IMG/VR virus record: IMGVR_UViG_3300036770_004917
Location: 1 to 64,000 of that record
Length of the DNA stretch: 64,000 nt
From: a virus
Strand: one strand, 5' to 3'
Shown here piece by piece: positions 2,242 to 52,549 of this stretch. Under the pieces are notes generated by a model, which had not been told where the DNA came from, searched no databases, and saw nothing but the letters and a program-made list of their open reading frames with translations. Position numbers and translations under genes: made by a program. Every line of letters begins with the position of its first letter. Within the stretch, counting starts at the first letter, position 1.

Positions 2242-2256
2242 TTTCTACCATCTTTC

Positions 2257-6450: not shown

Positions 6451-9400
6451 TCACTCCCATGGTCCGAATGTCTCATCTGCCAAAATTTTAGTAACGGCAT
6501 CTTTGGCCGTATAGTAACGAGTGTTTTCATCCTCAATATTACCAATTTTGTAGTACAAATATCGTGGAATTTGATGTTCGTTGCCGTTGGAGAAGTCGTA
6601 GACAGTGACGTTTTCCATTTCCATTCTAATCAGTTCTTGCATTAACTGATTGTGGCGTTTAGTAAGTCCATTCCTCAGCGATGAGGATGTTAGTGTTTCT
6701 GCTTGACGAAGAACATCAGCGATTTCATTTCGCAATTGTTCGTACTTATCCCACCCGTCGATGGCAACCTCCGCCCATGCGTGTCCATACCTGATACCCA
6801 TTGCCTCACCACCAGTCCCCAGTGGGATGCCATGAACAATGCGGATTTGGTCGTCAGAGAAATTGAATTCTGGCCCCCTGAGTCGCTGCGCCATAGTGAC
6901 TGCCATTTCGTAACAATCACCATCCCCATCGATTGGGTTTGAGCCATATGCTGATTTAAACCTATTGTCAAAGTTCTTGGATGACCTGGTACTGGCATAA
7001 AGCAACTTTTCAAGAACCGCCGCACGGTTTGGATACATTTCGGCGAACGAATATTCACGCCGGTCGCCATTTGCATTTGTTACGGAAGCAATATAGCCAA
7101 ACATTCTGTCTCTCAAAAACAGAGAAGCGGACTCGGCAAAGTCCTCTTCATATCTCTCCGATTCTCTCGCATATTGAGTTATAAATCTCTGACCAATACG
7201 TGGACCATGAGAACCATCGATGGATGGTGCAATATCTCGATAACTTGTCCCTGGGACGGATGTGGGCTGTTTTGCCAATCCACTGTCAGTTATGACAGCA
7301 AGCGGCACATTGCTCTGTCCAAACAAAATGCCATGCGACTCGTCTCCCTCCATTGCTGGAACCCAGTCGTCCGTAAGTGAACTGAACGCGTACTTGTTGC
7401 TATATGAGATTTCCCTATCATCAATCGCCGTCCGGAAACCAAGTGAGAAATCAACTGAGTGACCAAACTCATGCAACATTATGTCAACGTAGGGTGATTG
7501 CTCTGACGTTTTCCACATAACAATTGAATTGGCGTCGGGGTATGCTGTTCCTGAAACACGAGTGGCATCTATCCCATCTATGTTTCCAGCAAATGCGTCC
7601 GACTTGAAGATTATGTTTGGTCTCGGTATGCGCGGATTGATGTCGGCAATTGTTGTGTGGAAATTTTCCAGCGCAAGAACTATTGGTGCAATTTTTCCAG
7701 AATCACCAGATGGTGGGCGTATGTCATCAAAGGTGAAGACACCGATACCATTTTCATTAACTCTTGGGCTTGCTGCCCCCATACGACTCTTGATGGAGTC
7801 AAGTTCTGCCGCATCATCGATTTCAATAAGCGTCAATGAACCATCGGCATTGCGCACAACTACGGCATTGCTAATACCGGACATTTTGGCACCAGCAGGT
7901 ATGTCACTTACGAATAGGGCCTCGCCTGTTCGTAGCGTAGAAACATCGGCTTGGTGGAATATCTTTTCAGTTCTTCGTGTGGCAAGAATATTGCGGCGAT
8001 TATCTGTGCGCACGATGTCTGGTGGATTTGGTTTAGAACTATCAAATGCGTCTACTGCGAACAAGTGACGAGCAGAGACGCCAAGTCCGTCGTCACTTGG
8101 AACCAATGAATCCAATGAGGCAACGGCAAGCAGGTCTTGCTTGTACTTATCTAATTTATTTCTTTCACCCTTGGGGAAATATCCATCCGGTATGTCTGCT
8201 TCGGTCAATCCATCCAGAAGCGCTTGTGGATTAGCGAGGAACGCGTCTTTGGCGGAGGCATCCATGTATGCCCTGGAGCCATCTTCAGAAATCCGGAGTT
8301 GTGGGGTTAGCGAAGTAATGGAGCGAGTACTACGTCGTGAAACGATGGAGCGAGTTATATCGCTTGCGGTAACTGGATTTTGGCGTCTTTGCATTCCCCC
8401 AGTTGACCGACCCGACCTAGTGGCGGAAATATTACTCATGAATTGTGCCCTACGAACATCTTGCTCAAGGTATGCAAGATTGAATACTCCATTTGGCGTA
8501 TTTGTAATACGACTACTACGAGTACTGCGTAGTGGATTTGCGGGTTGCGTATTTAGGCTATCTATGAAGTCTTGCACCGTTCCAGGCCACTCATATATGG
8601 CCTTTTTTATCCCTTTGTATGTAGAATCTTGATTCACAAGCATAATTTTTTTCAAATCTTCCCCAGCATCGGTGCGGAGTTGATGCATGAGTTGGTTTGC
8701 CCCATATGTATCTAGCCACCATCTCGCCACCCTGTCTCTTTCATCAGCATTTAGACCTATATCGGGGTGGTTGGTGATGACCGAAACCATTGCTAATGCA
8801 TTGGCCCATTCTCCATGTCTGTCAAATCCGCGACCAGTACCCAGGTGTCCAATTACGTCATGGATTCCGTCAGTTCCTTCTAAATTATTAATAGCCCTGC
8901 GCGGATTCTCCAAACTGTCAAGTAGGTATGGTGCAAAGTCGGCGAATTTTGTGTATTTGATTTTTTCTGGTCCAGCACCAACCTCGTCAAGTTTGTCCAA
9001 TACTATTTTATATAGCGACTCTCTAGCAACGCTAATTGCTTCACCTATACTTGGGTCCCAGTCGCGTTCAAATTCCTGAGCCTGCTCAATAATGTTTCTC
9101 ACGGCATCAGCCGATGGTGCTTCTACATATGTCCAATCACGTCTATCGGGGATTATTGAATTGAAAATTGGGTGTGGCTGAGATGTGATTACTGGAATAC
9201 CGTTAGAACTCACACGAATTGATAATGACTCTGCTATTTTTTTACCAGTTTCACCAATTGATATGTCTGGTTCAAGGTCATCAATCTTTTGCCTGATATA
9301 GAATCTATGATTTCTTTGCTCCGCGTAGTAGCGGTCGAGCACATCTCGGGGGACGGAACTTCCAGCGAGAATATTTTTTGCTATCTCTGCTTCGCGTTCA

Positions 9401-12400: not shown

Positions 12401-14742
12401 GAGCCTGTTGTTCCGCCAATAAACCACATTGTCGGCGTAGATGATGCATTTTCTCCAGTTGCGCGAGCGAATAATGAGTCCAGTGCGAGTTGGCCCAACT
12501 CTCCATTGCGCCGCGCCTCCTCTGCTCTGGCGAGAGCCTCCGTTACATCGGTGTTGTAACGTGACCTAGTAGAAATGCGCTGATTACTTACGAATTGGTC
12601 GACTACATCTGGCGGCAGCCTCAGCAACATCCTGTCCGGAGAGTCGGCAATGTACGTCGGGTTATTGAGTAGCCAGTCATGGGCCTCTTTTTCTGATTTG
12701 GACATTGGCCCGAGAAGCAGATTACTTACACTTCGCGTTGAAAATGAGCGTGCGCGTTCCGACAATTGGGACTGGTTTCGCTCACCAACGAATGTCATAA
12801 ATTCATTTACGCTCATGCCTAGGACATTTGCCATATTGGCGATGGCTGTATTATCAACACGCATTCGCCTGCCTGGGTCATCATCGGTAAATGCAGCAAA
12901 TGACTCAGCAAACCACTCTATTCGTGCAGTTTCCGCATATTCACTTATTCTACGAGCAGAGGCTCTCTCCTGTTCAGAACCCCAAGTTACGGACCGGTAG
13001 AGCGCTTCTGAGAATTTTGCCGATGCATCATTGCCACGACCCTGTTTCAGATTCTCTTGTAGTTCCGAATATAGGGAAATCAGGTAGTCGCGAGCAGGGC
13101 CACCCTGTTTGGCGGCCATAAATTGCCAAGCGTGTGCAAGTTCGTGTCGTATCAATGAGTCGAGGTCTTCGTCCCTAAACATTGAGTCACGAACACGACC
13201 GGTTACTGGGTCAGGAAATGCGCCGGAGTTAAATGCTATGAATCCCGTTGGTGCGTAACCCCCGATTACGCTCTGCCACATACGTGGACCTGCAGTGAGG
13301 TCAATAAATCCCATATTGTCAATATCTGGCTCATACCCAGTCACAACAATTGGAGGCATGCCATAGCGTCTAACCGCATTGCGGACACCTGGATTCCTGA
13401 ATAGTTCATCCTGGATAATTTTTCGTACCAGCAAAGTCGCTTCGTAGTCTGGCTCAGCGGCAGTGATTCGCTCGTAAATCCGTTTTGCATTTTTGCGTGT
13501 GTATGGACTGTTCTTGAGCGCTTGCATCAACTCTTCGTTAGAACCTGGAACTAGTTGGGCAACAAGGTCATTTAGTTCACCGGCGCCCAAGAATTCATAT
13601 TCATCATCCACTGCATCAAGGGCCTTCATTAGTGTTGATGCGTCCCTCTTGCCCATTCTTTCCGAGCCACGCGATATTTCTAGGTCAGCATCGCCAAATG
13701 CAATACGCCCGTCCTCCATGACGGTATTCTGCGTATAAGTTGGTTTCTTTTTACGCGGACTCAAAACATCGCGCAGTTTGGACAAGAGTGGGTCTTCTCG
13801 TTCGGTCGGAACGTCATTTGGGGTAACCCCTATTATCTGGGAAAGAACATTTTTGTCAATTGCGCCGTCAACAGATAGTCCACTTCGTCGATTCTGTTCG
13901 TTGGCGAGTGCCGTTGTTCCAATCAGATTCTGTACACGGCGTCCAGTCCCCTCAGGAATAATGAATCGTGGAATGATGGGGCGTTCAAGTGGGAGTCCTT
14001 CAAAAACGATTCCATCTTTGTCGGCATCTATTGCCCCAGTTACATCAATAAAAACAAATCCGCTCGGCGCAGCGCGAAGCCCACGGCCAATTCGTTTGCC
14101 AACCTTTGGTCCAAGTCCCTTTACCTGCATTGAGTCAGCGCCATGAAGGTCGTCATAAAGTGACTTTTTGCGAGACCTCATTGTTTTTGGTTGATTACGC
14201 TTGACTACGTCCGCGATAAATCGCTCTGTACGTTTTTGCATATTTCGGCGACCAAGGGCAGTGCGGCCTGTCCTATTTGCCAAATCTGTCATATTGGTGC
14301 AGGGCATCCAGATTGTTCTGCCAGAACGGGAAATTCTCCTACTGACGCCAATGCATCCAAGTTGACGCGACCTATCACGTGCGGCCTCGATGTCCGTAAA
14401 GACATCTGGGTCTTCATCGCGTGGTGCGGCCGGTTGATATTGCTTACCAACTACGCCAGAGACAAGTCCGCCACCAGCGAGGGTATCAATTGCGACGATT
14501 CCACGAGAACCGAGATTCTCCCATTGGCGCTGCATGTTGTTGTTGCCGCGCTGTTGACGGCGTGGTGCAGAAATAGGCCCCATGGCAGATGGGCTACTAG
14601 GGACAATTTTGGCCAAAGATTCTGCGCTTGAACATGGACGCCAAACTCCATCGCTCGTCTGATGAGCGCCAGAGCAGCCAAGTTTCTTTGCCTCACGTAG
14701 GGCCTTCATCTTTGCTGCGGTAGTTGACGTAACCGCGTTCAT
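6451..14742 (-). CDS. Giant polyvalent protein A (2763 aa): GC..G..W.PC repeats, tag, zincin, zeta-like P-loop kinase, two pentapeptide blocks, HDxxGH domain, second zincin, transglutaminase/papain-like domain
   Basis: HELAH..EYA..EWFAESF; GGTTGSGKT..IDPDIIK; pentapeptide periodicity; HDVIGH..FDRHGE; HEFGH..YA..EDFAES; GDCYE..VHG..GHAW; 9 exact STRS. Confidence 0.85.
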   Translation of the reverse strand: MNAVTSTTAAKMKALREAKKLGCSGAHQTSDGVWRPCSSAESLAKIVPSSPSAMGPISAPRRQQRGNNNMQRQWENLGSRGIVAIDTLAGGGLVSGVVGKQYQPAAPRDEDPDVFTDIEAARDRSRQLGCIGVSRRISRSGRTIWMPCTNMTDLANRTGRTALGRRNMQKRTERFIADVVKRNQPKTMRSRKKSLYDDLHGADSMQVKGLGPKVGKRIGRGLRAAPSGFVFIDVTGAIDADKDGIVFEGLPLERPIIPRFIIPEGTGRRVQNLIGTTALANEQNRRSGLSVDGAIDKNVLSQIIGVTPNDVPTEREDPLLSKLRDVLSPRKKKPTYTQNTVMEDGRIAFGDADLEISRGSERMGKRDASTLMKALDAVDDEYEFLGAGELNDLVAQLVPGSNEELMQALKNSPYTRKNAKRIYERITAAEPDYEATLLVRKIIQDELFRNPGVRNAVRRYGMPPIVVTGYEPDIDNMGFIDLTAGPRMWQSVIGGYAPTGFIAFNSGAFPDPVTGRVRDSMFRDEDLDSLIRHELAHAWQFMAAKQGGPARDYLISLYSELQENLKQGRGNDASAKFSEALYRSVTWGSEQERASARRISEYAETARIEWFAESFAAFTDDDPGRRMRVDNTAIANMANVLGMSVNEFMTFVGERNQSQLSERARSFSTRSVSNLLLGPMSKSEKEAHDWLLNNPTYIADSPDRMLLRLPPDVVDQFVSNQRISTRSRYNTDVTEALARAEEARRNGELGQLALDSLFARATGENASSTPTMWFIGGTTGSGKTTLRTSGILSGVPGADTAVDIDPDIIKTMHPDWDGGRGASAVHGWSTQWALYGMRQAAAQGRDYTVTGTGTRVDQMLIGRDNGYRVIGHYVHVPTSIAEERMATRGQQGGVKLPTNLASQYAAELQYKVRKAITNGYMDEFYLWDNSQGEGNASLAAVRREDGTFDIINRKVFDEFFGKDGSRAVEKYWEEQMAQRVSGSVLASTRSSSFNYGNSTRSSQNRNLPERLVIESPPNKKATILRKNIIGKRTSHSELSNVILGSDVDLSDSEWISANFFSVTADNLKTSNPIVLRNSILRGVSFRNTQIPRGSDMRRTSLERVAFEGSEVVDVDFGETSMRGVDFSKATVGGINLRDAILERVDFDLADLNNSGLTPEQMLGSGISWTDRTKFSPQIQQFIASLPEGQVVNQNGKYSFKVNAESTTPINRADSNYAKARQIALGIRAIDIPEAPSDGSPISGLDATASKISDSGWLALRRSTITKSYMDRFSAIKQSLSDVKMTDSWMDGARFTGSTLQDVSFGGSTLRRASFRGVKIRGVLDMRRTDLRQADFSGAKFDPEALRTSAIDLRGADLTNAHLGSLPLGKLRLDNATLRGAVWDGPTSMISKDLRDRGLAGTRSMSRTTSYGAATHIGELSDRLSSPSRLSSSEKTQLIQDMSSMYRELLDMRLERPERQEFADFIESLRDSASNEINKFRVPGMTNRSMLLIESARADDKRSFVDRFKKIREAEPDFMKSLSAIQAWREASSAARKYEELDALHSQALDELRENREVAQSLPQLQNILHGDFLDDKNRKPATGRLQPGKRDKTPVISSQGELSSMRSTRSSLFRTYKNRPMTEDEKQRFQPLNLADGEKAKIESGVKLVFANEYDEIQSTLIVGPQVMRFRGTPGTKIYIDPNPPEQDFIDEKMAEWEKAFGPPSDPRRRTSSNQSGGGGRRSSDSQRQSGNDDEDALDRINRLVDEDRARRDTQSTRSRTDTYLLAEQTEDEIIKNLELDEREAEIAKNILAGSSVPRDVLDRYYAEQRNHRFYIRQKIDDLEPDISIGETGKKIAESLSIRVSSNGIPVITSQPHPIFNSIIPDRRDWTYVEAPSADAVRNIIEQAQEFERDWDPSIGEAISVARESLYKIVLDKLDEVGAGPEKIKYTKFADFAPYLLDSLENPRRAINNLEGTDGIHDVIGHLGTGRGFDRHGEWANALAMVSVITNHPDIGLNADERDRVARWWLDTYGANQLMHQLRTDAGEDLKKIMLVNQDSTYKGIKKAIYEWPGTVQDFIDSLNTQPANPLRSTRSSRITNTPNGVFNLAYLEQDVRRAQFMSNISATRSGRSTGGMQRRQNPVTASDITRSIVSRRSTRSITSLTPQLRISEDGSRAYMDASAKDAFLANPQALLDGLTEADIPDGYFPKGERNKLDKYKQDLLAVASLDSLVPSDDGLGVSARHLFAVDAFDSSKPNPPDIVRTDNRRNILATRRTEKIFHQADVSTLRTGEALFVSDIPAGAKMSGISNAVVVRNADGSLTLIEIDDAAELDSIKSRMGAASPRVNENGIGVFTFDDIRPPSGDSGKIAPIVLALENFHTTIADINPRIPRPNIIFKSDAFAGNIDGIDATRVSGTAYPDANSIVMWKTSEQSPYVDIMLHEFGHSVDFSLGFRTAIDDREISYSNKYAFSSLTDDWVPAMEGDESHGILFGQSNVPLAVITDSGLAKQPTSVPGTSYRDIAPSIDGSHGPRIGQRFITQYARESERYEEDFAESASLFLRDRMFGYIASVTNANGDRREYSFAEMYPNRAAVLEKLLYASTRSSKNFDNRFKSAYGSNPIDGDGDCYEMAVTMAQRLRGPEFNFSDDQIRIVHGIPLGTGGEAMGIRYGHAWAEVAIDGWDKYEQLRNEIADVLRQAETLTSSSLRNGLTKRHNQLMQELIRMEMENVTVYDFSNGNEHQIPRYLYYKIGNIEDENTRYYTAKDAVTKILADETFGPWE

Positions 14743-14749
14743 TACTGAA

Positions 14750-15091
14750 TCAACCTCGCGTTGCTAGGTGAATCTGAATATCATCTTCTGACGCGCCATC
14801 CATGGACATTGCCATCTCCGTGGCTTCGTCAGAGTCAAATGGATATCTCACCATCCACAGGGATGCTTCCTCAAACTCCTGTGCATATTTCTGCATGACG
14901 TCCGCTTGTTTCTGCAGTTGCCACTCTACAACTTCTTCGACTGAGGCATTTTCTGGGAATTCTCCACTACTAGCCATCTTTATGGCCTCAAAGTAGAGTT
15001 CGCTATTTGTTGAAAATGGTGGATACCTGAGCATTGTTCCTAGAACTCGCTCTTGCTCCATCCATAATTTCATGTTTTCCGATAGTTCCAT
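14750..15091 (-). CDS. Hypothetical acidic protein
   Basis: 113-aa ORF packed tightly between two giant genes. Confidence 0.65.
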   Translation of the reverse strand: MELSENMKLWMEQERVLGTMLRYPPFSTNSELYFEAIKMASSGEFPENASVEEVVEWQLQKQADVMQKYAQEFEEASLWMVRYPFDSDEATEMAMSMDGASEDDIQIHLATRG

Positions 15092-15095
15092 GGCG

Positions 15096-18000
15096 TCAGT
15101 CTACTCTCTCTCCGTTATTGAGTTTTTTAACGAGTGCTGGGTCTAGTCTGCCACCTGTTTTTATCGCTTCCTCTACAGCGTCTGTCATCCCTAGGCCACC
15201 AACACCACCGTATGTTATCAATTTCCCACGGTTCATAACCAGCATGACTCCACTATCCATTCTTAATGCATCATAACCAAGGAATGGAGCGAGGTAGTTC
15301 TGTAAGAGTCCATTTGTACCCTCAACGAAGTAGCGCAGTGCATCGAGTGCATTGGCTCGTTCGTCTGGGTTTGATGCATTCCGAACAGCGCTAACAAGTT
15401 GTGAAATAACCTGTCCACCCTTTGTTTGCCAACGTGCATCGCCTTCCGGTATGGATGCGTAAAGCCGTTCTTCCAGTAGTTCAGCAAGTTGTTCAGCGGC
15501 TGCTCCAGTTTTTCTGTTACGCCACTCTCTCGGCAACGACGGGTCCTTGAGCGCAGTAGAAATACCACCACTAACGGCATTCATTTCTCTCTTAATTTGT
15601 TCCAACTCAGACTTACGTATGATTTTTGCATCCGCAGGAAGAATTGCCATAAGGCCACCAGGTCCTGGCTGTGTTCCTTTTTTGCCCCTTTGGTTGTCCT
15701 CGGTGACATATCCTCGCCAACCACCATCGGGTGACGTATTCCCACCCTCAATCCGGACAGCCCAGTATTCTCCAGGACCCTGCATTGTCCCACCGTCTCC
15801 AGTGGTGTGTCTTTGGACGTCGTCCATGTACCGTTCGGCGAATGTATGTCCACCGAAACCACGTCTAATTACTATGTTGCCTGAGTCTTTTGCTAGTTCA
15901 AGAAACTCTTCTTCGGTAACGACCGTTGGACGCTCCTGCATGCCATTGAGGTCCCAGATGCTTCCGAGGACTCTGTCGGCTTTCAGGTTGCTGGCCTTGA
16001 GTTCTTTCTCTAGTTTTTGCCTCTTCTTCTCATCTTTTTTGTCTTCCTTGGACAGTTCCCCGGACCTTGGTGCACGAGTTAGAAGTTCCAAGTCAGCAAA
16101 TTTAGACAAACTATCCTTCGATAGCGTTGGGCTGCCATCGTCGGCAAGGACAAATGCTGGAGTTGGCTGAGTTTTCCTGGTATGTGCCTTAAGGATTTCT
16201 GCAGAATCTCTCTTTTTGCCAGCAAGCAACTTAAGTCTATCCGCCTTAATGCGCTTGAGTATTCTGAGTTCCTTGGCAGTTTTGTCGGCTTCTTCCGCAC
16301 GTCCTCCGTAGGAAACCTGGCCCTTCTTCAGTCTCTCCAGGCGTTCCCTACCTTCTTTTCTCTTCCTGAGGCGCTCATTGTGACGCTTTACCCAACCTTC
16401 TGCATCTGGTCTTATGAACTTGGCAAGTGAGAGTTTGCGCCAGAATGAATCGCCACGAATCGCCGATGCGTCATCGTCAGCAATACCAAGTGCACTCTGT
16501 CCCCAAAGTTGAGATGAGTGGTCAAAATCAAGATTCACATCATCACCAACAATGGGACCATCACCAACAATGGAGTCAGCATTGGGTCGCGGATTACCAT
16601 TTGAGTCATAGATAACTCTATCGTCACCCATTCGCCAGCCGAATGCACTTGAATCCGGCAAGTCATACTTTGATGAACCGGATTTTTGGTCGTGATACCA
16701 CTCAAATACTTCAGGGAGTTCACCAGCATCAAACTTTGCCTTCAACTCCTTGTATTCCTTGGAGTTGTAGCGAATTGCCTTATTGTTTTTCCCCTTTTGG
16801 GTAGTTGCCCACTTGCGGAAAACCTGATTTTTTGCGGCTGCGGCACCAGTAAGTGAACTTGGGCTACCGAGTAATTCTTTACGCATTGAAGATGGTAATT
16901 GCTCAGCAACAAATGCAAGACTGTCGCCGCCCTCTTCGTTCCTCCCATTATTTGAGTTAATTCTCGCACCGGCAAGAACTAGAAGTGCCGACGTCTGGTC
17001 ATCAAGCATTTTGATTTTGTCATTTATGTCCTTGAGTTGCGTTTTCTTCAATCCAGGACTCAACTTGTCATTTGCTTCTATTGCGTCGCGCTTCTTGAGT
17101 AGGAGTTCACGAACTTTTCCATGTGTTGCCGAAAGTCGTGCCAGTCCCTTATCGCTGAGTGCAAGGCGCCACTCGCCAGTAACTGGGTCGCGCTGCGTCG
17201 TAAGGAGTTGATATCTCGCGAGGGAAGCAAACTTCTGTGCCTGCCGTTTATTTTTGGCAGTAACAGTTTTTTCCGCTGTCTCGCCCCATAGGTTGAAATC
17301 GGCTATGTCGCCGAATAGGCCAACGAATTCATTGGTTCTTCCGGCGCCCTCAATCGGCGTCAGTTTGGCACCTCTTGTGGTATCAAGCATCGCAATTTGC
17401 TGAATTTCTCCATTTTCATCAATTGATGCAAAGAGGTTGCCAGCGCCACTAACCGCCTTAATGAGACTCTCCTCCATCTCAATTGCTCGCGACTCAGTGA
17501 GTCTGCGTTGCTCTGGAGTAAGGGATTCCCACAATTGGCCGTCTTGTTCGTCAATTCTTCTATGCCCTGGAGATTTCAGTCCGTCAATTGCGGTATCGCG
17601 CCCGCTGCGGAGAGATGAACCCATGTCGATGTTGGCAATTCTCTGGCGCTCTGAAACACTTCTAGTAGATGGTCCTGCACTCCCGATGCGACGACCCGCA
17701 TTTCTGGCACGACGACGTGCTGCAACTTCACGACCCGCAACACGAATTGATGCATTTGGATTGTTCATCAACTCATCGCTAATTAGTCTTCGACGCTTAA
17801 TCTCAGCGTTGGCGCGCTGTAGGCGTTTTCTTAGTCGCTCAAGTTGTTCTGGAGATGGCGAGAGAACAGAAGAACTGCGTGTTGATGCAAGCATTCTCAT
17901 GTCTGCCTCATCGAGGTCATCTGGACCGGTCATGTAGAAATCAATTGCTTCTTGTGCGTCTTCTACACTTGGGAAGGACCTGTCGAGCCCACCGGCAACT

Positions 18001-21000
18001 TGTTCTGAACCTGAATCAAGTTCAAAAATGTTTTTCCACGTACCATCGGCAGTGCGTTCCTGACCATCGACTGAGTAGGAGCCATCTTCGTTGCGGAGGA
18101 TTTCAAATCTGGCATTGCCGTCATTGCTTCTTCCACGACTCACAACCTCGCCATTGGCCGTGTCGCTATATCGTGGGGTGGTGTTGTCTGACCCGGGGCG
18201 ATTAAAATTAACCAACTTGCTGCTGCGTGTTGACTTTTGCAGACTTGCGCCATATCCAGTACCTGGCTCAAATCCACCAGCAAACATCTGTGCATCCGCA
18301 TCAAACGCTGGAGAATATCTGTAATCATTTCTTGTCGGCATGCGTCGCAAAGAAACACCCTGCTCATTGGCGAAGTTGGTATCATTGGCATTCATTGCAA
18401 ACTGGTTGTATCCACGCTCAAATGCGGCGCTTGATTCATATGAGCGTTTTTCTGAACGAGTACTAAGTAGTAGATTGTTTGCATCTTCTTCTGAGATTTC
18501 TGGCAAATCTTCCTTATCGGCATCCCGTATCTGGCGATAATCCCAATCACGAACATCGTCAAGGAATTGGGGACTGCTGGCATAGTCCTGGAAAGAAGGC
18601 TCACCAGCATCCACGTCTATGCCTTGTTCGTCGGCATATCCGGGAACATTGTTTACGGAATTCAACCAGTTATTGTAATATTCGCTAGATTCTTCAGAGA
18701 ATAGGAATCCATCAATAACGCTACCCTCTGGATACTCGCGTCGTCCAAGGTAAGGAACTCTGTCCTCGTTTTGAGCAACTCCTCTACGGCTGCGCAAACT
18801 GCGAGTAGAAGCACGGTCCGCCGCAGCAGAACGCAGGCTTAGGTTGCCACGCCCATCGTCGTCGCCATTCATGCCATTCCAGGCATTGATTCGCATTACT
18901 TGGATGGCATCCCAGTCACGAACATCGTCGAGGAACTGGGGACTACTTTCGTAGGATGCACGAGATGGCGAGACACCCTTTTCTACGCCCTGCTCTTTTG
19001 CGTATGCCGAATTGAGTCTAGTTAGTCGTGCCCATCTGCTGAAGTTGTCTTCAAAGTCGCCCGACTCTTTGTATGCATCAATGACTGCTGGTTCTGGCTT
19101 TCGGTTGCGTCCCAAGCGAGGAATTCTGTCTTCTTTTTCAAGATTCAAATAACTTGAGCGATTGTTTCTGCGTAGCAACCCTGTTGCCTTACTGCGCTGG
19201 ACAATATCTTTGAATTTTGCAATAAATCGTGGCTGACCGGGAGATGGAATGTCAAACATATGTCCACGTTCAGCCATTTGCTGAGTAACAAAATATCCAT
19301 CACTGTCCGCGACGCTCTGCAATAGTTGTTTCAAATTCCCCAGAGGTTTCCTGTATCGTTCTGGCAGTTGCCCAGCCTCCATTTCGCCATTGAAGACACT
19401 TACCGTCCGGAGTGCCGCATCAAATTCATCGCGAGACATAATTATTGAATCAACGCCACCGATGGCATTTTCCACAGTGTCATACAGTGCTGCGATGCTG
19501 TTCGCATCATCGGAATCGGCAAGAGCCTCAACTTCATCAAGATTAATAAGAATGTCGGCTATTGAGTGAAGGTCGTCGCTGAGGTCCCCAAGTTGCGATA
19601 GCGTCATGCTTACTTCAACGTTCGTGTCATCTTCACCATCGCTACGTGCTGAACGGATTGATGCCAATGATGGGCGCTTTCCTGGGAAATTGAACGAGCC
19701 ATCGTTGGTGAATTCGGAAGCCGGTATCTGGAATGGCACTTCACGTCTAATTGATGCTTGATACTCCATATCGTACTTGTCGAGAATTTGCTTAATTGCG
19801 CCAAACATATTCCTATCGCGCAGCGCAGCAACTACGTGCTGATATTCCAATGAATTCGATGGGCCCTCACTTCTGGAGAGTTCGCTCCACCTATTGGCCA
19901 AGATATTGAAATACTCTTCAAGTAATTGCCTGTCAGACATGCGTTCAAAATCCGCATAGTGAAAACCATCTGCCGGTCGTGCCAGTCGGAGGTCTCCATC
20001 GCGTTGAGCCAATGAAGCGGAGCGTGAACTCTTGATTCCATTGTTTCTGTCAGCCATCGTTCTTCTCGTGGAGAGGAGTTGACGGCCCGGTTCTGCGGAT
20101 GTCAAATACTCAAGAACGTCGTCGTATTCCATGTCCTCTGGGCCGTCTACGTACTCCCGAATGGCTGCCTCGGCATCATCGATGGTTGAATAGGTTCCAT
20201 CGATATTGTTCATGGATAGTCGTGAATCGTTTACTTCCACCCCGGAGAAACCAACCAGATTCCATTTGCCATCTGAGTCGCGCTCTCTTCCGACAATCAC
20301 ATAGTCGCCATTTGGGGTGAGAACGATTTCTGCATCAAAACCGCCCGATGAATCGCTGCCACGCATCACAACCCTACCGTCGACGGCATCCGAGAAGCGG
20401 GGGGTGGTGGAGTTTTTGCGCGAAACCGGACTCATGACCACTGACCTGGTTGACGGTCCGTGCAAATCTTTATCGAATGTGTCGCGAGGCTGACTGAATC
20501 TGAAAATTGATGGAATTAGTGTCCTTGATTCACTGCGACTTACTTTTTCGCCACCCGGCGAAACATCGCTTCCCGAAACATTCACCCGAGCACTGGGCTC
20601 ATATCCTTCGAATCTGTCCGCAATATCTTTTGCCATCTTCTGACGAGCGCTAATGGTATCCACAAACAATTTGCGCATCTGTGGGGGGACTCCAGCATCG
20701 CCCATTTCTTGGTCAATCTTCTGCAGATTCAAATGCTCAACACGTCGCATGGCGACGACTAGGTCATTGTTTGATACGCGGCCGTATAGGTTTGAGATAT
20801 GCTGACCACGAATCGGTGCGCCAGGCATGTAAATCATAGTGGCGACGTCATCCCATGGAGCATCTGGGCTAAATTCTGGCTTCTTGCTTCCACCCTGTGC
20901 CCTATATGGTCCAGCCCCACCGGTATCTACTGTATAAATAACACCAATTGGGTCAACCATCTTGTTATTGCCACCACTCCAAGCATCTCTGACCTGAAGA

Positions 21001-27132: not shown

Positions 27133-27143
27133 TATTTCCTACT

Positions 27144-30400: not shown

Positions 30401-30736
30401 TTTGACTTCTTCCTCACCCAAACTCGTGATTATCTTTGCGCCAACGAGCAAATCATCACCTATCGGCTGTGTTTTTTTGAGAAATATTCTGTTCCACTTG
30501 TCTCGTTCTTCTGGGGATGAGCCAGGAGACCATAGAAACTTATGAAATTTAGAAAACTTAAGTTCTTGTATTGTCGGCGTTGTAGTAATGAAATGGAAAA
30601 ACTTAACAAAATCAATTTGTCCATCCGGGGAAACGACGGCGCCATCAAGCATCTGCTCACCATATGGCCGCAGAAGGTAATAGACCTTATTCCCTTCGTA
30701 TGCCCCAACGAGAATGGCTTTTGTTTTTACAGCCAT
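27482..30736 (-). CDS. Tagged zincin-like metallopeptidase protein (1084 aa)
   Basis: AAGGAG SD; FKALG..DGDGDGFVDDGLPTMRPFIP tag followed by SLRS; HESAH with a distant EFVAES. Confidence 0.8.
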   Translation of the reverse strand: MAVKTKAILVGAYEGNKVYYLLRPYGEQMLDGAVVSPDGQIDFVKFFHFITTTPTIQELKFSKFHKFLWSPGSSPEERDKWNRIFLKKTQPIGDDLLVGAKIITSLGEEEVKRKDYRIRADEFRRKIASTGSLPMEKTVLSRKSVFNMRGIVGFKALGPLLSGKPSVDGDGDGFVDDGLPTMRPFIPGFDFLPDSSTNTSLRSITTRRADKAADRSATREEMLSAIDDVAGIVSRRHNDGKKIKTRKDAMDILKRLIPSFGLSPNDKARSSIEFLDSKADSDSLKPWELAYINQFLLMFGDDASRNEVTWRLRSMDPRIAAQGAGGYTSVPLGAKDWEFSQKFSDEGPRLLPKKNRKPLMTIGYSAETDKQNSRIYLLGLLMKQDKRNFTALSYAISKALRDDLNEMPDKSKIMNALQYKYGLDIEPGIASMSEIINQLLQGNNLIGAESQVPSSALGQDLLQTIWNVVNNSADAIAQVDSSFDKDLLVSRTLRAIQQGSIADILKSLRKTREAYQNSLNSPGLKMHLANGEELLDKWLTVNSKLVGVHESAHGLHFLRILESNRKKAQKLRDEYLQRYIDRQKEAGLTPETFKELQKQLPIEAFYTDVFKDEIREYAQNSPELLRRDILMLTTGGTAGRLIPDFQKLNGTSESLVGLTSTITSAIEIIKMQPPGVGRYDAARAMGAIGPFSVAGFMAKNPDSIGKSNFDDLVKQAKAEMVEQFIQQMESWLGQPIFMGDKPVALNGYMADLLNKMQASIPEVSGILGLDSILEFKAGDSITPAIASLLINPAIQKREQSARRNIMRGIRMFESDGSDSLTLGKVSPAIVLSTLGFPDIKGDDGNVMGGGRPEDVKPLIDALIGVSSLVRETEKQLQMGVQNIEQAMSSRSEPDAVDLPSSFGDISLSEFMEMPIDDVLEKLFTGIDDSLSAVANAINSGTMSSRLWENFEIMPKTGRTELSPLNQSEIKIINDIARKIGLPAGVQSSAGGTGLSSLPAQGYSSYQATLTDPTTWLGSTKWSIGEFVAESAVADFMGIPFSQIADSGLITRELTNEELQVLNKLMQWVFSGRLPSDRMSEAFNP

Positions 30737-40833: not shown

Positions 40834-40856
40834 TCCGGGCTCCAATCCCGACTGTA

Positions 40857-42580: not shown

Positions 42581-45500
42581 CTAATCATTCAGGGCAATCT
42601 CTACCTCGTCGCCGTTCTCATTTATCTTAGTAATTGTTCGTGAGTGAACTGGTTCTGCTGTTCTGTTGATGAATGTGGCCATGGCAGCCTTCGCCATTAG
42701 TTCTGCCATTTCGCCAAATAGGGCCATCCTTGCTTCGCCACCCCGCTCCACCTGTCTGTCTAGCGCAACATAAAGTGCTTCAATAATTTCGTCAATTTCG
42801 TCTTGCGTTAAATACAGGGCACCAGCATTGGTTCTCCTGTCGCTCAATTTCCCGGATTTCTGACGGGTCAATGTCTTCTTCAATAAGTTCAGGGCGGCAG
42901 AATGACGCGGGTCATCGGCCTTGCTTATCTCCCTATCAAGCGAATTAAGGAGTTCGTTGAATTTCGTACGCTCTGCACGTATTTCTGCCCTGCCTTCCTT
43001 GACCGAAGACCGAGTGGAGCGAGTACTTTGCATAACCTCATTTTTGCGTGCAGCAAAATATGCATCAATGGCACGACCACGGATGCGTGGTACATATCTG
43101 GTTTTTGGAACAATGTCCATTTCGGGCATTGAGCGGACAAGGGGGGCCCCACGCCCTGGTGCCTTGTCAATGAATTCATCAGTCATTAATTCATTGCGCA
43201 ATTTATTTAGATAATCACGAGTTCCAGATGCCCTATCAATACTATTTTGTACATACTTTTTGCCAATTACGGAAGCACGCGGAGCAAATCCATTGGGTTT
43301 TCCATCCATCGCGTCAACGACAAAATCACTAGTCAGGTAATCATCCAGAATGTCAATTGCGTCATCAATATTTCCGATACCAAAATCAATCCCAGCACCA
43401 TCAGCATCCGCGAATAATTTCTTGACATCGTCCCATACCTGAGAGTGCCGATTGTCCTGATATCTGGTTGAATAAACCGAATCAAGTTCACTCTGGTACT
43501 CCCCTATGATGCTTCCAATTCCTGAAGCAATTCGCTGCCTGCGAACCCTGGCAGCCGTTGGGTTGGACGGGGTGCTGACGGGAGAATCCTCACCTCTAGT
43601 GGGCGATGGTGCTGTCGCTTTTGGTGGTGCAGTAATGTCTACTGGCAATTGGATTCCACTGCGAGTCGGGCGGACGGGAGACTGAACTCTTGATGACCGG
43701 ACAGGAACAGGAGGCAAGTCCAGGTCTTCGTCCTCAAGACCTAGTTCTCGCCGCTTATCAATGGCATCAAGAAGTTTTTGACTTGAGGCCATAATGTCAT
43801 CCCATATCAAGTTAAGGTCGTTGTCGGGTATTTCGCTAACTCCAGTCCTGCGCTTATCTGCTTCAGGCCTTAAGCGGCGCACTACGTCTGCTGCCTGCAT
43901 GTGGTTTAGGTTGCGGAAATCATTGTAGAAGACACTTCTTGACTCATTATCTAGAATATCTCTTGTTTTCATGCCAAGTGATTCCCAAGATTTTGCAAAA
44001 TCCGGAGTTGCGGCAGTGCCAGAACCGTTGCCGTAAATAACACTCTCGTAGTTATCACGACGCTTGAGGTTGTCTTGGACCATATTGAGTGCATCCATAA
44101 CTTCGCGAGCCTGCTTGATGGCATCGCTTTGTCTCAGGCCCTTATCCCCACCACCCTGCACCATGTTCTCTTTAATCCATGACAATTTGTCCAACGGTGC
44201 CATATCCGCATAGTCCGACGGTGCCATTTCTGCAAATGGTGTTCCTGCTTCGTCACCACCCTTTCTTGGCGCCAAAGACCCAACAGCAGAACGTGTTGGT
44301 GTGGAGAATTCCCTAATAGCATCCAACGACTTCCATGTTGCTATTGTTTTAAATTTCTCGTTAGCAAGTGATTGCGCAACTTTCATATTTGAACCTTGCG
44401 CCCAATCAAGAAGTTTTTGGCGACGCTCTTTATTTAGCGAGTAGGGTGCCCCTGAGTTGAACAGTGAGTTCACGTCAGTTCCGTTTGTCTGAGGGAATTC
44501 GGTTGCATCAAATTTTAATTTTGGTGATGATGCTGCATGGTCAAGCAATGCAGCACTTGCCGTGCCATCACTCATATTCGATGAACGAAGAGCAGTTATA
44601 CCATCACGAATAAACTCATACTCTGCTGGCGACATACTGAATGCAGTCTTGAGTCCACCACTCTGTCCACCAGCAATAAGTTTGTCATAGACATCAATCG
44701 CCGAAGTGATTTCGCGATTATTGGCAAAACGCTTTCTCAATTCTGCCAGTTCATCACGAACTATTCCAGCATCATTGTTGTCCAAAATAATGCTAATGGT
44801 ATTTGATGGCGTTTTTGGAAGAGGACGATACATGGGTGCTATTCCATCTGGCAAAAGGCGCGCACTCCTAGAATCCTCTAGTGCATCAACGATGTTAATC
44901 GCGGCAGCAGCCTCTTGATTCGCAAATAGTTTCTTAGCAATTGAGTGAGCCCTGATTGGGTCAACGGGAGCAACCTCGTCCCTGGATGATGCCGAATAAG
45001 CACCTGCAAGATTCTTTATTAGAGATGTTTCCGTAGAACTTAGTTTCACTCTCCGGGCATCTCGTTCAAGGAGTTGGGCAAGCCCTGGGACAAGACCGCG
45101 ACGGCTGCCATCTGGCGATACCGTATAACTGGAATCTTTATCAAGTTGATTTAGCGATGCGTCAACTGTCTTTCTGCTTTTAAGGAAAGTATCAATAACC
45201 TCATCATTCATTCCGCCATAGCGATAAATGCCGCCATTCCTGCCGATAATGAGTTCATTGCGGTTCCCATCGTATGCGACGAATGAAACATTGGAATTAG
45301 CGAACTTGCTTGAGCGACCAGGGAATAATTGTTCCGAATTTCGCAAATCAGTACCCATTTTGACTGTTGCCTTACTCGTTATCCGAGGGGATGCAACACT
45401 CCGAGTTGATGGGGATATCGCCAATACGGCTTGTTCGTCTAGTTCTGTAGCGGTTGTATTAATGACGGCTTGTTTTGCATCGGCCAGTTTTCTCTTGCGA

Positions 45501-48500
45501 CGAACGGAGAGGATTGCATTTTCGAGTATGTCTGATGCAGATTTATTGATGAACGACCTATCTTCATCATCAATGTCTCTTCCATTGATGATTGAGTCAA
45601 CTTCAAGCATGTCAATGTAGGAGCCAACCTGGTCGTTGCTTGCTAGTTGATTGAGTTCTTCTGCTAGTTCTGACGCTGAGGTGCGATTCATTCCTACTGG
45701 GCGAGACGTGCCACGTGGCCCGGTGTCAAATAATGACCGCTCCAATGCTGAGTCATATTCAAGAAGTGACAAGACATCCGCCCAGTCCTCTTCGGTAAGT
45801 CCAAACCTTTCGGCTGCATCGTTATAGCCTGATGCTTGCTTTTTCGCTTTTTTGTATGATGCTGAAGTGAGTGCTGCCTGACGCTCTTCGCGAACAAGGT
45901 GCTGGGCTGCAGCAAATATTTCATTTACTTCGCGTTCAATAGCCAATATTGACTCATCAAGAAATGCTGAACGATTTTCCATTTCGGCATTCGGCCATTC
46001 ATAATTAACGGCATCAAATTGTGCATCTAGTTCTTTCAACTCATCTCGTGAGTCATTCAGTTCATCTAGCAATCCACGAACTCTTCCGACTATTGCGTCA
46101 GTTGAACCTGCGCGGAAATCCTCTACCGTATCTCTCCATACAGCGGGTATCCGAGTACGTCCGCTACGGGTACTTGCTGGACGATTGGCATTAAGAAGTT
46201 GTTGGTCATCGGGGATAACTGCCGATATGGCATTACCACTCACTAGGTCACGAAGGACCAATTTATTAACACCATCTCGCATTCGCCCAACCGAAGCAAC
46301 CGAATATCTAGCGTCACCCTGTGATGCTAGGGATTGCATGAAGTTATCGGGGAGAATGTCACCAGGTTTGACATCGCTGCCAAATGATATATAAGACATT
46401 GAGCCATCACTATTTTGGGATGACAATGGACGACCGAGCGGCCTGAGTTCGCCACCGGCTCTCATTGCCGAAAGACCATTTATGTATTGTTCTTTCGCAT
46501 TGTTGCCTGGGGCGATAGTGCTTCTCGTAATATTGAGCCATTCCCGAGAAGATGGACCTTCTTTGCGTTTTCCGGGAATCTTGGTTGCCCGGCGCTTTTG
46601 CTCCTGTTCTTGCCTGACTTGTTCTGGCGTCAATTTTTTCATGTCACCAGTAACTTTTTTGTCCCCAGTGACATTCCACTTTTTGCGATTCTTGCCGCGC
46701 TTGGAGCGTGTCGATGGGATGTTACTACCTTGTGCTGTATCGTCGATTTCGTCGCCCATTTGTGTTGCGATACTTTGTCCACGGACACTGCGCGTACCAC
46801 CATATTCATACCCTTCGCCACGTGGTGTTGGTGCATCTGTTTCACCCTCCACTCCACGGATAATGTCACCAATCGCGCTTTTTTCTGAATTTCCGAGAAC
46901 ACCAATGGATAGAGTTTTATCCTTCTTCGGGATTTCCTGAACTCCGGTGCGTCTAGCAAAATCAATCTCGTCTTTATCACTTATGGAATAAGCAAGAATG
47001 TCGGCGCCAGTTTCAGCATAGATACGCTCAATTGCATCTATTTGTTCTTCGGTAAACCGAACATCGCCAGCCTCGAAGCCAATATATGGCCTTATCTGCT
47101 CAAGTACTTTTTCGCCTCTTGAATTTATTTTTTCAGTAATATTCCCACGACTCATGCGGAATCGGACCACCCCATCGTCGTAGGCGTTAAGGTAGTCGTG
47201 TTCGTCTCCGTGCTCACCAATAACTGGATAAAGCGTCCCATCTGGATACAGCCATGCTCCAAAAAAGTCAGAATTAATAAACTCATCCACGGTCATGAAC
47301 TTCATCTGTAGCGGTCGTTTTTCCGAACCCAAACGAGCAGAGTCGTCAGCCTTTGCCCTCATCCGTAGTTCATCACCAATTGCTGCCAATATGTTTGCCG
47401 CCCCCTCATCTGGCTTTCCTCTCATATCAACAATCGCTCGTATGTCCTGCTGAAGGTCTCTCAGCATTTCTGGCGTCATTGATGGCGAACGCAGTGGATA
47501 ATCGGCACGACCACTCAGGAATCTAATTTCCCTCAACGTAGCCCTATTCAACTTCCCGTTGTCTAGTGACTTTGTTATATCGTCAAGGAGTTTGACTAGG
47601 GCTGCATTATTAGCGAGGCGTTTTTCTTGCATTTGTTTTGTAATTTGCTCACGCCTCTGCTGCATGTCTGCCTTCATGACGGCCAGGGCCCTTTGTTCTC
47701 TTGGGGAGATATATGAGCGAGTAGAGCGGGTAGAGGATGACGCAAGCCCATCCGTGCCAGTCGTTCTGCCACGCATTCTCTTGAACAGTCGGCCGATTCC
47801 GCCCGGTTCGCGCTCTGTCAGGGAATGGTCTCCCGAATTGGCAAAAATCTCTGGAGCAACGAGTCCGAAAGACCGAAGAAGTTTGCCATTTTTATTCATA
47901 TCCATTATTTCTGACGCACTAAACCAACCGATTTCAGTGTTTTCCCCATCTCCGATTTTCACATCAGATAGGTCTCGTCTGCCAACTTCGTAGACATGGG
48001 TGTCGTATGCCCAATCCGGAGCACGTTGGTCACGGTAGGAATAAACCGGCAATAGCCCCTCCAAGTCACCGCCAACTTCCTCCCTAAATTCCGTCACCGC
48101 TGTCTCCATCGGAATTTCAGAACTGTCCTTATCCTTATGGACACCACCAGGGAATGACCATTGTCCGCCCCCAGAACTCATCCATGGGGCACGTCTGGCT
48201 AGTAGGTATTCATAATCTCCGGATAGCCCCCTACGGCGTCGCACCAAGGCGCCAGATGCGCCATACCGTCCATTGAATTTTTGGCCAGTAATGGAGAAGT
48301 AGTACCCCTCCCCAGTCTCCTGATTTGAGCCGCCACCTCTTGGTGCAAAGAATGGATATGCGGGTGGCTTTAGTTTGCCTGCACGAAGAAGGGAAACTTC
48401 CCTGCTGGATATTCTGTCCGCATAATAGACACCATCATCACTCTGCAGAATTTTGTATTTTTCCCACGGGCTTGCCGTCTTTTCTTCTTCTATTTCCGCA

Positions 48501-52549: not shown

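What the first reader, a model, noticed from the sequence alone, without database searches (positions are those of the whole stretch)
6451..52549. Effector polyproteins segmented by a recurrent S-T-R-S linker: candidate virion-delivered, proteolytically processed effector arrays
Seen: by manual count the four giant ORFs hold about 35 exact STRS tetrapeptides (9, 9, 5 and 12), plus variants SLRS, SIRS, xTRS and tandem STRSTRS/STRSSRS. A rough composition-based expectation is below 1 copy in about 12,600 aa. I found none in capsid, portal, protease or terminase. Codons differ between copies (TCA ACT CGC AGT near 11780, AGT ACC AGG TCA near 6990, TCG ACT CGT TCG near 22410), so selection acts on the peptide. 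Copies fall between recognisable modules, for example flanking the zeta-like kinase, the pentapeptide blocks, the kinase, the Nudix and the ParB modules, and just before the C-terminal transglutaminase-like domain. Known: phage polyvalent proteins and MuF toxins carry such domains, and their zincins have been proposed to release them. Inference: STRS is a standard cleavage site that turns each giant protein into many separate effectors. A phosphorylation or Arg-ADP-ribosylation site is an alternative.
Basis: partly seen in the sequence, partly recalled or inferred. Interest (0 to 1): 0.95.

Follow-up and report, generated by a model that had tools for sequence, protein, structure and literature searches.

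The report
Lineage-specific cut-site code in phage cargo giants
Four giant proteins encoded between the capsid-protease and capsid genes of an uncultured phage are punctuated by the peptide Ser-Thr-Arg-Ser, and related phages carry a different four-residue peptide at the same joints, so it is most likely a co-evolving protease cutting signal, although no cut has been measured.

Summary
There are 35 STRS (9, 9, 5, 12) in the four giant ORFs, against 0.4 expected and at most 6 in shuffles. None occurs in the 16 other ORFs of the window.

The decisive new evidence is comparative. 80 related viral contigs carry a giant ORF after, or fused in frame to, the same S78 prohead protease. Each lineage has its own top tetrapeptide: STRS, SMRS, SSRS, GMRS, GMSS, GFAS, GFSS or GLAS. 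Only the last Ser is constant. The motifs sit in the same alignment columns and at the same module boundaries: 18 of 35 testable boundaries, against 2.9 by chance.

The lineage motif also marks the tape-measure-like tail protein, and in a complete relative a distant giant that bears the same N-terminal tag.

Best reading (0.5): a processing site read by a phage-encoded protease, probably S78, that cuts the tagged giants into modules. Against S78: the capsid protein lacks the motif and a tail protein has it. Arg modification is unlikely, because sister lineages have no Arg.

This scan noted similar cut-site codes in other phage genomes before. My four paper searches on this question found none in print.

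The parts
6451..14742 (-). G1, 2763-aa giant cargo ORF. 9 STRS at 12730-12741, 12562-12573, 11773-11784, 11740-11751, 9913-9924, 9466-9477, 8515-8526, 8320-8331 and 6982-6993.
   Evidence: Pfam: DUF3721, Zeta_toxin 764-892, pentapeptide 1082-1344, weak DUF6782. Weak Transglut_core in the C-terminal module.
15096..24467 (-). G2, 3123-aa giant cargo ORF. 9 STRS at 22407-22418, 21570-21581, 21363-21374, 20442-20453, 18798-18809, 18453-18464, 18222-18233, 17874-17885 and 17658-17669.
   Evidence: Pfam: KTSC 365-407, pentapeptide 492-665. No Cys.
30727..40845 (-). G3, 3372-aa giant cargo ORF. 5 STRS at 35911-35922, 34717-34728, 33157-33168, 31603-31614 and 31099-31110.
   Evidence: No Pfam family; phrog_2859 at 2924-2986.
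42581..52549 (-). G4, 3322-aa giant cargo ORF directly after the protease. 12 STRS at 52103-52114, 50879-50890, 49550-49561, 49523-49534, 48599-48610, 47723-47734, 47714-47725, 46703-46714, 46163-46174, 45398-45409, 43016-43027 and 43007-43018.
   Evidence: NUDIX 1445-1553. Orthologs carry SMRS or SSRS in the same columns.
52552..53934 (-). S78 prohead serine protease, 460 aa, candidate reader of the motif. It is fused in frame to the giant in most relatives.
   Evidence: Pfam PF04586, 52.3 bits against a cut-off of 21. His and Ser align with HK97 gp4. Fused ORFs in relatives.
52555..52561 (-). A AAA AAA heptamer at the protease stop, a candidate -1 frameshift site joining the protease to G4.
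   Evidence: Conserved in 11 of 11 split relatives examined, while the stop position varies. Fused relatives read straight through into the homolog of the G4 N-terminus.
52283..52507 (-). Shared tag in G4 (residues 15-89): GLRAAP..DVTG..DADxDGIVFE..PLERPIIPRF.
   Evidence: The same segment occurs in G1 and G2, and in a distant giant of relative G005.
13894..14118 (-). The same shared tag in G1 (residues 209-283).
23607..23831 (-). The same shared tag in G2 (residues 213-287).
4496..5803 (-). HK97-fold major capsid protein, 435 aa. It has no STRS. S-F-K-S at residues 94-97 (5513-5524) is a motif-like candidate maturation site.
   Evidence: Pfam PF05065. 39% identity to HK97 gp5. Junction alignment of 9 lineages.
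54043..56094 (-). Portal protein, which sets the start of the head module. No STRS.
   Evidence: Pfam PF04860.

Best explanation
STRS is this phage's version of a family-wide, lineage-specific processing site with the general form [S/G]-[T/M/F/L/S]-[R/A/S]-Ser. It lies in polar linkers between the modules of giant multi-domain proteins that are encoded in the head module and share an N-terminal address tag. A phage-encoded protease reads it. The most likely enzyme is the S78 prohead protease, which is translated at the head of the first giant: by direct fusion in most relatives, and probably by a -1 frameshift here. It would cut the giants into separate modules in or around the prohead. I infer the cut to fall before the invariant Ser. 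Shown: enrichment, peptide-level selection, the position of the motif at module joints, concerted change of the motif between lineages, and the physical link between protease and giant. Inferred: that the motif is cut, by which enzyme, where and when, and that the pieces are ejected into the host.
For: Enrichment: 35 observed against 0.4 expected, written in 30 distinct 12-mers.

Gene order is portal, S78 protease, G4, G3, G2, G1, capsid.

From the protease query, 125 stretches were confirmed and 80 loci kept. The giant ORF that follows or is fused to the protease has a lineage-specific top tetrapeptide: STRS, SMRS, SSRS, GMRS (15), GMSS, GFAS (up to 18), GFSS or GLAS, each with an expectation of about 0.05-0.2.

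The same alignment columns carry STRS, SMRS and SSRS. Against relative L007 the motif residues are 48/48 identical while the flanks are 64% identical. Against L008 they are 38/48, with flanks at 45%.

18 of 35 testable module boundaries carry the other lineage's motif within 15 aa. Random placement gave mean 2.9 and max 10 in 5000 trials.

Several cargo proteins of one genome share the motif, while portal and capsid have none.

The flanks are poorer in hydrophobic residues (0.215 against 0.269, p 2e-4). 0 of 35 sites lie in Pfam or PHROG envelopes, against 3.1 expected.

G4's N-terminus is homologous to the region after the protease in fused relatives, and the slippery heptamer is conserved in 11 of 11 split relatives.

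No Trypsin_2, Prp or ClpP family was found in this record or in four relatives, one of them complete.

Precedent: SPN3US gp245 cuts 9 head proteins at one short motif and prefers Ser at P1' (PMC10052503, passages).
Against: No proteomic or biochemical evidence exists for any cut.

The capsid protein, the canonical S78 substrate, lacks the lineage motif. None occurs in the capsid ORFs of the window or of the five relatives scanned. At its junction, in 9 lineages aligned, it has only loosely similar tetrapeptides: SFKS, QFKS, GSQS, QLQS, SSNS, SSYS, QYRT and ASYS.

The tape-measure-like tail protein carries the lineage motif at about the same two places in 5 of 6 genomes. A protease confined to the prohead would not meet it.

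The protease domain is highly conserved while the motif changes. The one column that tracks Arg against Ala/Ser at the third position reflects a single deep split, and the GMSS lineage breaks the pattern.

A global-alignment test of linker conservation was weak (p 0.03). No 3-D model could be made.
Confidence: 0.5

Rival explanations
1. The motif is a cleavage site, but another protease reads it. Candidates are a host protease acting on proteins that leave the virion through the tail, or a peptidase module embedded in the cargo, such as a zincin or a transglutaminase-like Cys domain.
For: The tail tape-measure-like protein carries the motif although it is not a head protein. The capsid protein lacks it. 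G1 has a weak DUF6782 zincin hit, and a weak Transglut_core hit that includes a Cys. Relative G005's distant giant has a weak zincin-like ATLF hit. Iyer et al. proposed embedded metallopeptidases as processors of polyvalent proteins (PMC5512222, passages).
Against: The embedded candidates are sub-threshold and not family-wide. BLAST at E 1e-8 found the G1 C-terminal module in one of the five relatives searched. Closely related phages, with protease domains 84-87% identical, differ in the motif (STRS, SMRS, SSRS). This is easier to explain by a phage-borne reader than by a host enzyme. No Trypsin_2, Prp or ClpP genes were found in five records, but only three families were screened.
Confidence: 0.2
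2. The motif is a recognition site that is not cut. It could be a modification site on the invariant Ser (phosphorylation or glycosylation), or a docking or pausing signal for packaging, unfolding or passage through the tail of proteins that leave the virion.
For: The only invariant residue is Ser. The proteins that bear the motif (tagged giants and the tape-measure-like protein) share exit through the tail rather than residence in the head. Zeta-type kinase modules occur in the cargo.
Against: The position at module joints and in polar, poorly conserved flanks is the classic polyprotein pattern. The motif is often doubled in tandem (STRSTRS, GMRSRSGMRS). A protease is fused to the first giant across the family. 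The three variable positions change chemically: Arg to Ala, Thr to Phe.
Confidence: 0.15
3. STRS is a passive linker, or a by-product of composition or repeated DNA, with no specific reader.
For: The flanks are rich in Ser, Thr and Arg, and x-R-S often repeats after the motif (R at +5 in 15 of 35 sites).
Against: Block shuffles that keep local composition gave at most 6 copies against 35 observed. There are 30 distinct codon spellings. The other orderings of the same residues occur 0-1 times. Concerted lineage-specific replacement at conserved positions needs a reader. 24 giants of other phage families that share the Nudix module use A/P/E-rich linkers and have no such tetrapeptide.
Confidence: 0.02

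Closest known systems
Prohead-protease maturation at a short consensus motif: T4 gp21, phiKZ gp175, SPN3US gp245
   Same: One phage protease and one short motif are shared by many head and ejection proteins. Multiple motifs occur per protein. SPN3US prefers Ser at P1' (PMC10052503, passages). Targeting sequences load cargo into the prohead. The T4 and phiKZ details are recalled, not read here.
   Different: The protease here is S78 (HK97-type), not the T4 type. The known systems mostly remove N-terminal propeptides, whereas these motifs separate modules along 2763- to 3372-aa proteins. The capsid protein lacks the exact motif, and a tail protein has it. The motif letters switch between sister lineages.
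Polyvalent proteins of phages and conjugative elements (Iyer et al. 2017, PMC5512222)
   Same: Giant multi-domain proteins with effector-type domains, encoded among late structural genes and predicted to be packaged. The authors draw the analogy to viral polyproteins and propose release by embedded peptidases. They report assemblin-like peptidases fused to some of these proteins (passages).
   Different: They report the assemblin-like peptidase always at the C-terminus and of limited distribution; here it is N-terminal. In the passages I read, no recurrent linker or cleavage motif and no lineage-specific code is described.
Herpesvirus assemblin release and maturation sites (Ala|Ser)
   Same: The protease superfamily is related, and the residue after the cut is an invariant Ser. 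The GFAS and GLAS lineages would give Ala|Ser. The assemblin site consensus is recalled, not tested here.
   Different: Other lineages have Arg or Ser at the third position. The substrates are cargo giants rather than a scaffold. I claim a resemblance only, not membership.
Viral polyproteins with a cis-encoded protease, as in RNA viruses
   Same: The protease is translated as part of the polyprotein, a repeated short site lies at domain joints, and the site co-evolves with the protease.
   Different: This is a DNA phage, and the products are predicted virion cargo rather than replication proteins. There is no homology.

Membership tests
Peptidase S78 (HK97-type prohead serine protease), for ORF 52552-53934 | Profile match above the curated threshold | tested here: met
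   PF04586, 52.3 bits against a cut-off of 21, residues 18-171. phrog_80 head maturation protease, E 5e-29.
Peptidase S78 (HK97-type prohead serine protease), for ORF 52552-53934 | Catalytic His and Ser present | tested here: met
   BLASTP against HK97 gp4 aligns the GH His with HK97 residue 65 and the Ser of EWSIGYK with residue 114. That these two are the catalytic residues is recalled, not from a call.
Peptidase S78 (HK97-type prohead serine protease), for ORF 52552-53934 | Gene lies in the head module between portal and major capsid protein | tested here: met
   Order is portal, protease, cargo, capsid. About 47 kb of cargo lies between protease and capsid.
Prohead-protease cleavage-motif systems (T4, phiKZ, SPN3US type) | One short motif shared by several head-module proteins, far above chance | tested here: met
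   35 STRS in 4 proteins against 0.4 expected. The same pattern holds with other letters in relatives.
Prohead-protease cleavage-motif systems (T4, phiKZ, SPN3US type) | The major capsid protein is matured at the same motif | tested here: not met
   0 STRS in the capsid. The five relatives' capsid ORFs scanned lack their lineage motif. Only loosely similar S-F-K-S-type tetrapeptides occur at the junction. The true maturation site is unknown.
Prohead-protease cleavage-motif systems (T4, phiKZ, SPN3US type) | Substrates are confined to the head | tested here: not met
   The tape-measure-like protein after the sheath and tube genes carries the lineage motif in 5 of 6 genomes.
Prohead-protease cleavage-motif systems (T4, phiKZ, SPN3US type) | Mapped mature termini at the motif | not testable with these tools
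   This is an uncultured phage known only from an IMG/VR record, and no proteome is available.
Polyvalent proteins (Iyer et al. 2017) | Two to 15 unrelated, conflict-type domains in one polypeptide | tested here: inconclusive
   G1: Zeta_toxin, pentapeptide, DUF3721. G2: KTSC, pentapeptide. G4: NUDIX only. G3: none. Most of the length has no family hit.
Polyvalent proteins (Iyer et al. 2017) | Encoded among phage late or structural genes, consistent with packaging | tested here: met
   The giants lie between the protease and capsid genes. A shared N-terminal tag occurs in G1, G2 and G4.
   No MuF family appears among the Pfam hits of the four giants at E <= 0.01.

The most novel reading that the evidence does not exclude
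A whole family of uncultured phages uses a fast-evolving protease-substrate code. The capsid protease is made as the head of a giant cargo polyprotein, by fusion or by frameshift. Every protein destined to leave the virion through the tail carries the same lineage-specific four-residue cut site at its module joints. This includes the tagged giants, wherever they are encoded, and the tape measure. The code is rewritten in concert at dozens of sites between sister lineages, perhaps to keep processing private during co-infection or to escape host interference.
Probability: 0.3. Interest if true: 0.85.

Novelty: new variant of a known kind. Interest (0 to 1): 0.7.

Why it matters
If the motif is cut, these phages deliver dozens of separate enzymes from a few genes. 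Module boundaries could then be read straight from sequence, which would give a parts list of injected effectors for an uncultured phage family. The concerted switch of the motif between close relatives would be a natural experiment in protease-substrate co-evolution. It would also offer a set of orthogonal protease and site pairs. The motif on the tape-measure-like protein raises the testable idea that one enzyme processes head cargo and tail-lumen protein alike, which is not part of the textbook picture of prohead proteases.

Tried and rejected
Structure test of linker against domain. I built a 15-row alignment of G4 2130-3322 with orthologs and handed it in. No 3-D evidence exists, so I used sequence proxies instead.

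Global alignment of each giant with two distant orthologs. Flank identity was 0.198 against 0.243 (p 0.03). The gap fraction was not significant (p 0.11), and G4 alone went the other way. I give this test little weight, because the modules are shuffled.

Placing the capsid maturation site by alignment to HK97 gp5. Similarity starts only at residue 160, so the site stays unknown.

Specificity residue in the protease. One column is Glu in the lineages with Arg at the third motif position and Lys in those with Ala or Ser. This is one deep split, and the GMSS and GMTS lineages keep Glu, so I do not count it as evidence.

A second protease. Trypsin_2, Prp and ClpP were absent from 5 of 5 records. 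Only three families were screened.

Representative search with G4 900-2099. It gave 222 hits at E <= 0.001. Most of the 150 listed are Nudix matches that lie inside the segment bounded by STRS. About 6 of the 150 run past an exact STRS by more than 15 aa, three of them orthologs. One module's homology starts 12 aa before STRS-1946. This shows one module only.

PDB sequence searches. There was no hit for the protease. G1 gave only pentapeptide and a weak Zeta hit.

The regex printed nothing and was replaced.

Paper searches. Four of them found no description of a punctuating motif in phage giants, and two none of a tape measure cut at a head-protease motif. Supplements were closed and may hold architectures I could not see.
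Full report
OBSERVATION. The window holds four giant ORFs on the minus strand: G1 6451-14742, G2 15096-24467, G3 30727-40845 and G4 42581-52549, of 2763, 3123, 3372 and 3322 aa. They carry 9, 9, 5 and 12 exact STRS, 35 in 12,580 aa, against a composition expectation of 0.40. 2000 whole-protein shuffles gave mean 0.39 and max 4. 2000 shuffles within 30-aa blocks, which keep local composition, gave mean 0.76 and max 6. The other orderings of the same four residues occur 0-1 times, apart from the overlapping TRSS. None of the 16 other ORFs of at least 150 aa has STRS. The 35 sites are written in 30 different 12-mers that use both Ser and both Arg codon families.

CONTEXT. On the minus strand the order is portal (PF04860), S78 prohead protease (PF04586, 460 aa), G4, a 522-aa acidic protein, G3, ORFs of 1084, 211 and 681 aa, G2, G1, and the HK97-fold capsid protein (PF05065). 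The record is an 86-kb linear IMG/VR contig that CheckV rates 57% complete. The nearest cultured capsids, at 46-50% identity, belong to Gordonia and Brevibacterium myophages. Those phages also place extra genes between portal and protease, for example an ADP-ribosyltransferase toxin. Pfam recognises little in the giants. G1 has Zeta_toxin, pentapeptide repeats, DUF3721 and a weak zincin. G2 has KTSC and pentapeptide repeats. G4 has NUDIX. G3 has nothing. Cys is very rare, and G2 and G4 have none.

RELATIVES CHANGE THE LETTERS BUT KEEP THE SITES. The protease query confirmed 125 related stretches in viral contigs, of which 80 loci were kept (43-95% identity). Wherever the locus held at least 400 aa after the protease, a giant ORF follows it. 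In most lineages the giant is fused to the protease in frame, giving for example a 3661-aa or a 4905-aa protein. The commonest tetrapeptide of these giants is lineage-specific. It is STRS in the closest relatives (7-13 copies), SMRS in L026 (7), SSRS in L013 (9) and GMRS in L019-L028 (15). It is GMSS with some GMRS in L014-L018, GFAS in several clades (up to 18), GFSS in L034-L043 and GLAS in L053 and L055 (9 and 7). Each has an expectation of about 0.02-0.2. Only the final Ser is constant.

In a MAFFT alignment of G4 with five orthologs the same columns read STRS, SMRS and SSRS, for example at G4 sites 146, 1946, 2126 and 2381. Within the STRS lineage the motif residues are 48/48 identical to L007 and 38/48 to L008. 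The 10 residues on either side are 64% and 45% identical, below the protein-wide 77% and 66%. Inside each of five longer relatives several different cargo proteins share the lineage motif, while portal, capsid and two conserved mid-size ORFs have none. Concerted replacement at conserved positions, spelled in different codons, calls for a common reader that evolves with the sites.

THE SITES MARK MODULE JOINTS. I cut the four giants at STRS and its close variants and ran BLAST with each segment against the giants of five relatives. Modules recur in other giants and at other positions. For example, the Nudix module sits near the N-terminus of the G002 ortholog. For 35 boundaries the alignment reached within 20 aa of a segment end. 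At 18 of these 35 the other lineage's own motif lay within 15 aa of the projected boundary. Random placement of the same number of motifs gave mean 2.9 and max 10 in 5000 trials. The 141-aa C-terminal module of G4 is preceded by the local motif, within -2 to +4 aa, in 4 of 4 lineages.

The flanks of STRS have fewer hydrophobic residues (0.215 against 0.269, p 2e-4) and more S/T/P/G/R/N/Q (0.54 against 0.43, p 7e-7). 0 of 35 sites lie inside a Pfam or PHROG envelope. Those envelopes cover only 9% of the residues, so 3.1 were expected. I then searched 1.8 billion representatives with G4 900-2099. It placed most of the Nudix-module matches inside the STRS-bounded segment. About 6 of the 150 listed hits cross an exact site by more than 15 aa, three of them orthologs. 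As a control, 24 giants of other phage families that share this module have no enriched tetrapeptide and use A/P/E-rich linkers. No 3-D model could be made.

THE CODE REACHES BEYOND THE HEAD MODULE. Outside the window, a 1470-aa ORF (record positions 79525-83934) lies downstream of the sheath gene, which is 36% identical to the sheath of Gordonia phage Gray. Between the two lie ORFs of 157 and 179 aa, where Gray has its tube and two small genes. It is hydrophobic and rich in Gly and Ala, like a tape measure. It has STRS at residues 44 and 625, with about 0.05 expected. Its orthologs carry their own lineage motif at about the same two places: G003 GMSS/GMRS, G005 GLAS/GFAS, G004 GLAS/GFAS and G006 GLAS. 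G007 has none by my pattern.

In the complete relative G005 I examined 150,000 of 150,897 nt. GFAS occurs 24 times in six frames. 13 are in the protease-fused giant, 6 in a 3154-aa giant about 35 kb away, 1 in another cargo protein, 1 in the tape-measure-like protein and 3 in short frames. The distant giant has RNase_T and GNAT domains. It begins with the same tag (DxDxDG..P.ERP) that G1, G2 and G4 share here, and that follows the protease in fused relatives. So the motif-bearing set is the tagged giants plus the tape-measure-like protein.

WHO READS IT. In favour of the S78 protease:
- It is the only protease family I found.
- It is fused to the first giant across the family.
- In the 11 split relatives examined, the protease ends on a conserved A AAA AAA heptamer whose -1 frame runs into the giant.
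- Fused relatives read from the same GGSKK stretch straight into the homolog of the G4 N-terminus.
- Its His and Ser align with HK97 gp4 residues 65 and 114.
- The first motif of the fused proteins lies at residue 542-618, which matches 460 + 146 here.
- Prohead proteases with one short motif shared by many head proteins are established in SPN3US (PMC10052503, passages).

Against it:
- The capsid protein lacks the motif in every lineage examined, and its junction shows only loosely similar tetrapeptides.
- The tape-measure-like protein is not a head protein.
- The protease domain hardly changes while the motif does.

I therefore put about 0.65-0.7 on proteolytic processing at the motif and 0.5 on S78 as the enzyme.

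ALTERNATIVES. Arg-directed modification is unlikely as the family-wide mechanism, because several lineages have no Arg in the motif. A role for the invariant Ser other than as the residue after the cut cannot be excluded. The embedded zincin and the transglutaminase-like module are sub-threshold and not family-wide. Chance or passive-linker readings are contradicted by the shuffles and by the comparative data.

KNOWN AND NEW. Polyvalent proteins and their likeness to polyproteins are in print. So are rare fusions to assemblin-like peptidases, reported at the C-terminus (PMC5512222, passages). Motif-directed prohead processing is in print too. Four of my paper searches found no repeated, lineage-specific punctuation motif at the module joints of such giants. 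Nor did they find an N-terminal protease fusion or frameshift. The two tape-measure searches found no motif shared with the tape measure. Earlier notes of this scan describe analogous cut-site codes, with other letters, in other phage genomes. I did not test those.

LIMITS. Everything rests on sequence. No cut, packaging or ejection has been observed. Motif patterns for the relatives were chosen after looking at their top tetrapeptides. The boundary test used my own rule for STRS variants. Many G3 boundaries failed that test.

Noticed in passing
window 52555-52561 (minus strand): An A AAA AAA heptamer lies at the end of the protease ORF. Its -1 frame runs into G4. It is conserved in 11 of 11 split relatives while the zero-frame stop moves. 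Fused relatives read through the same GGSKK stretch. This is a probable programmed -1 frameshift.
   Followed up: partly
window 13894-14118, 23607-23831, 52283-52507 (minus strand): A segment of about 60-75 aa (GLRAAP..DVTG..DADxDGIVFE..PLERPIIPRF) is nearly identical in G1, G2 and G4. Weaker copies occur in the 1084-aa ORF (residue 168) and the 652-aa ORF (residue 390). It also heads a distant giant in relative G005. It is a candidate capsid-loading tag.
   Followed up: partly
record positions 79525-83934 (+), outside the window (L104:525-4934): A tape-measure-like 1470-aa ORF carries STRS at residues 44 and 625. Its orthologs carry their own lineage motif at similar places. A protease confined to the head does not explain this.
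   Followed up: partly
window: protease residues 7-11, G2 127-131, 681-aa ORF 53-57, capsid 94-98 and 107-111: The pentapeptide SFKAL occurs in three different proteins, and SFKSV and EFKSL occur in the capsid N-terminal region. EFK[STA]L is conserved in the capsids of all 9 lineages aligned. It may be a second, Lys-based processing or structural motif.
   Followed up: partly
window 40857-42425 (minus strand): A 522-aa protein between G4 and G3 has a Cys-rich N-terminus, very acidic Met- and Glu-rich repeats (GGMRMRMPM) and no family hit. Its counterparts in relatives have EEMY repeats and carry no motif. It may be scaffold-like.
   Followed up: no
locus L117:3692-13153 (relative G005, positions 93692-103153): A 3154-aa giant far from the head module has the tag at residue 48 and six exact GFAS. 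It has RNase_T and GNAT domains and a weak zincin-like hit. The tag-plus-motif system is therefore not tied to the head gene cluster.
   Followed up: partly
proteins P0005-P0032: Giants of 2258-7004 aa from other phage families share the Nudix module of G4 but have no enriched tetrapeptide. Their linkers are APEA/PEAP-like.
   Followed up: partly
window 54043-56094 (minus strand), portal residues about 410-500: The portal protein carries a long Pro/Gly/Met-rich low-complexity insert (PGMPPGAPGMPPG...). It is also seen in relatives' portals as PGMP and GMPP repeats.
   Followed up: no
record positions 66584-68536 and 72136-73278 (outside the window): A class II-like ribonucleotide reductase and a protein with a PAPS-reductase domain lie between the head and tail modules.
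   Followed up: no
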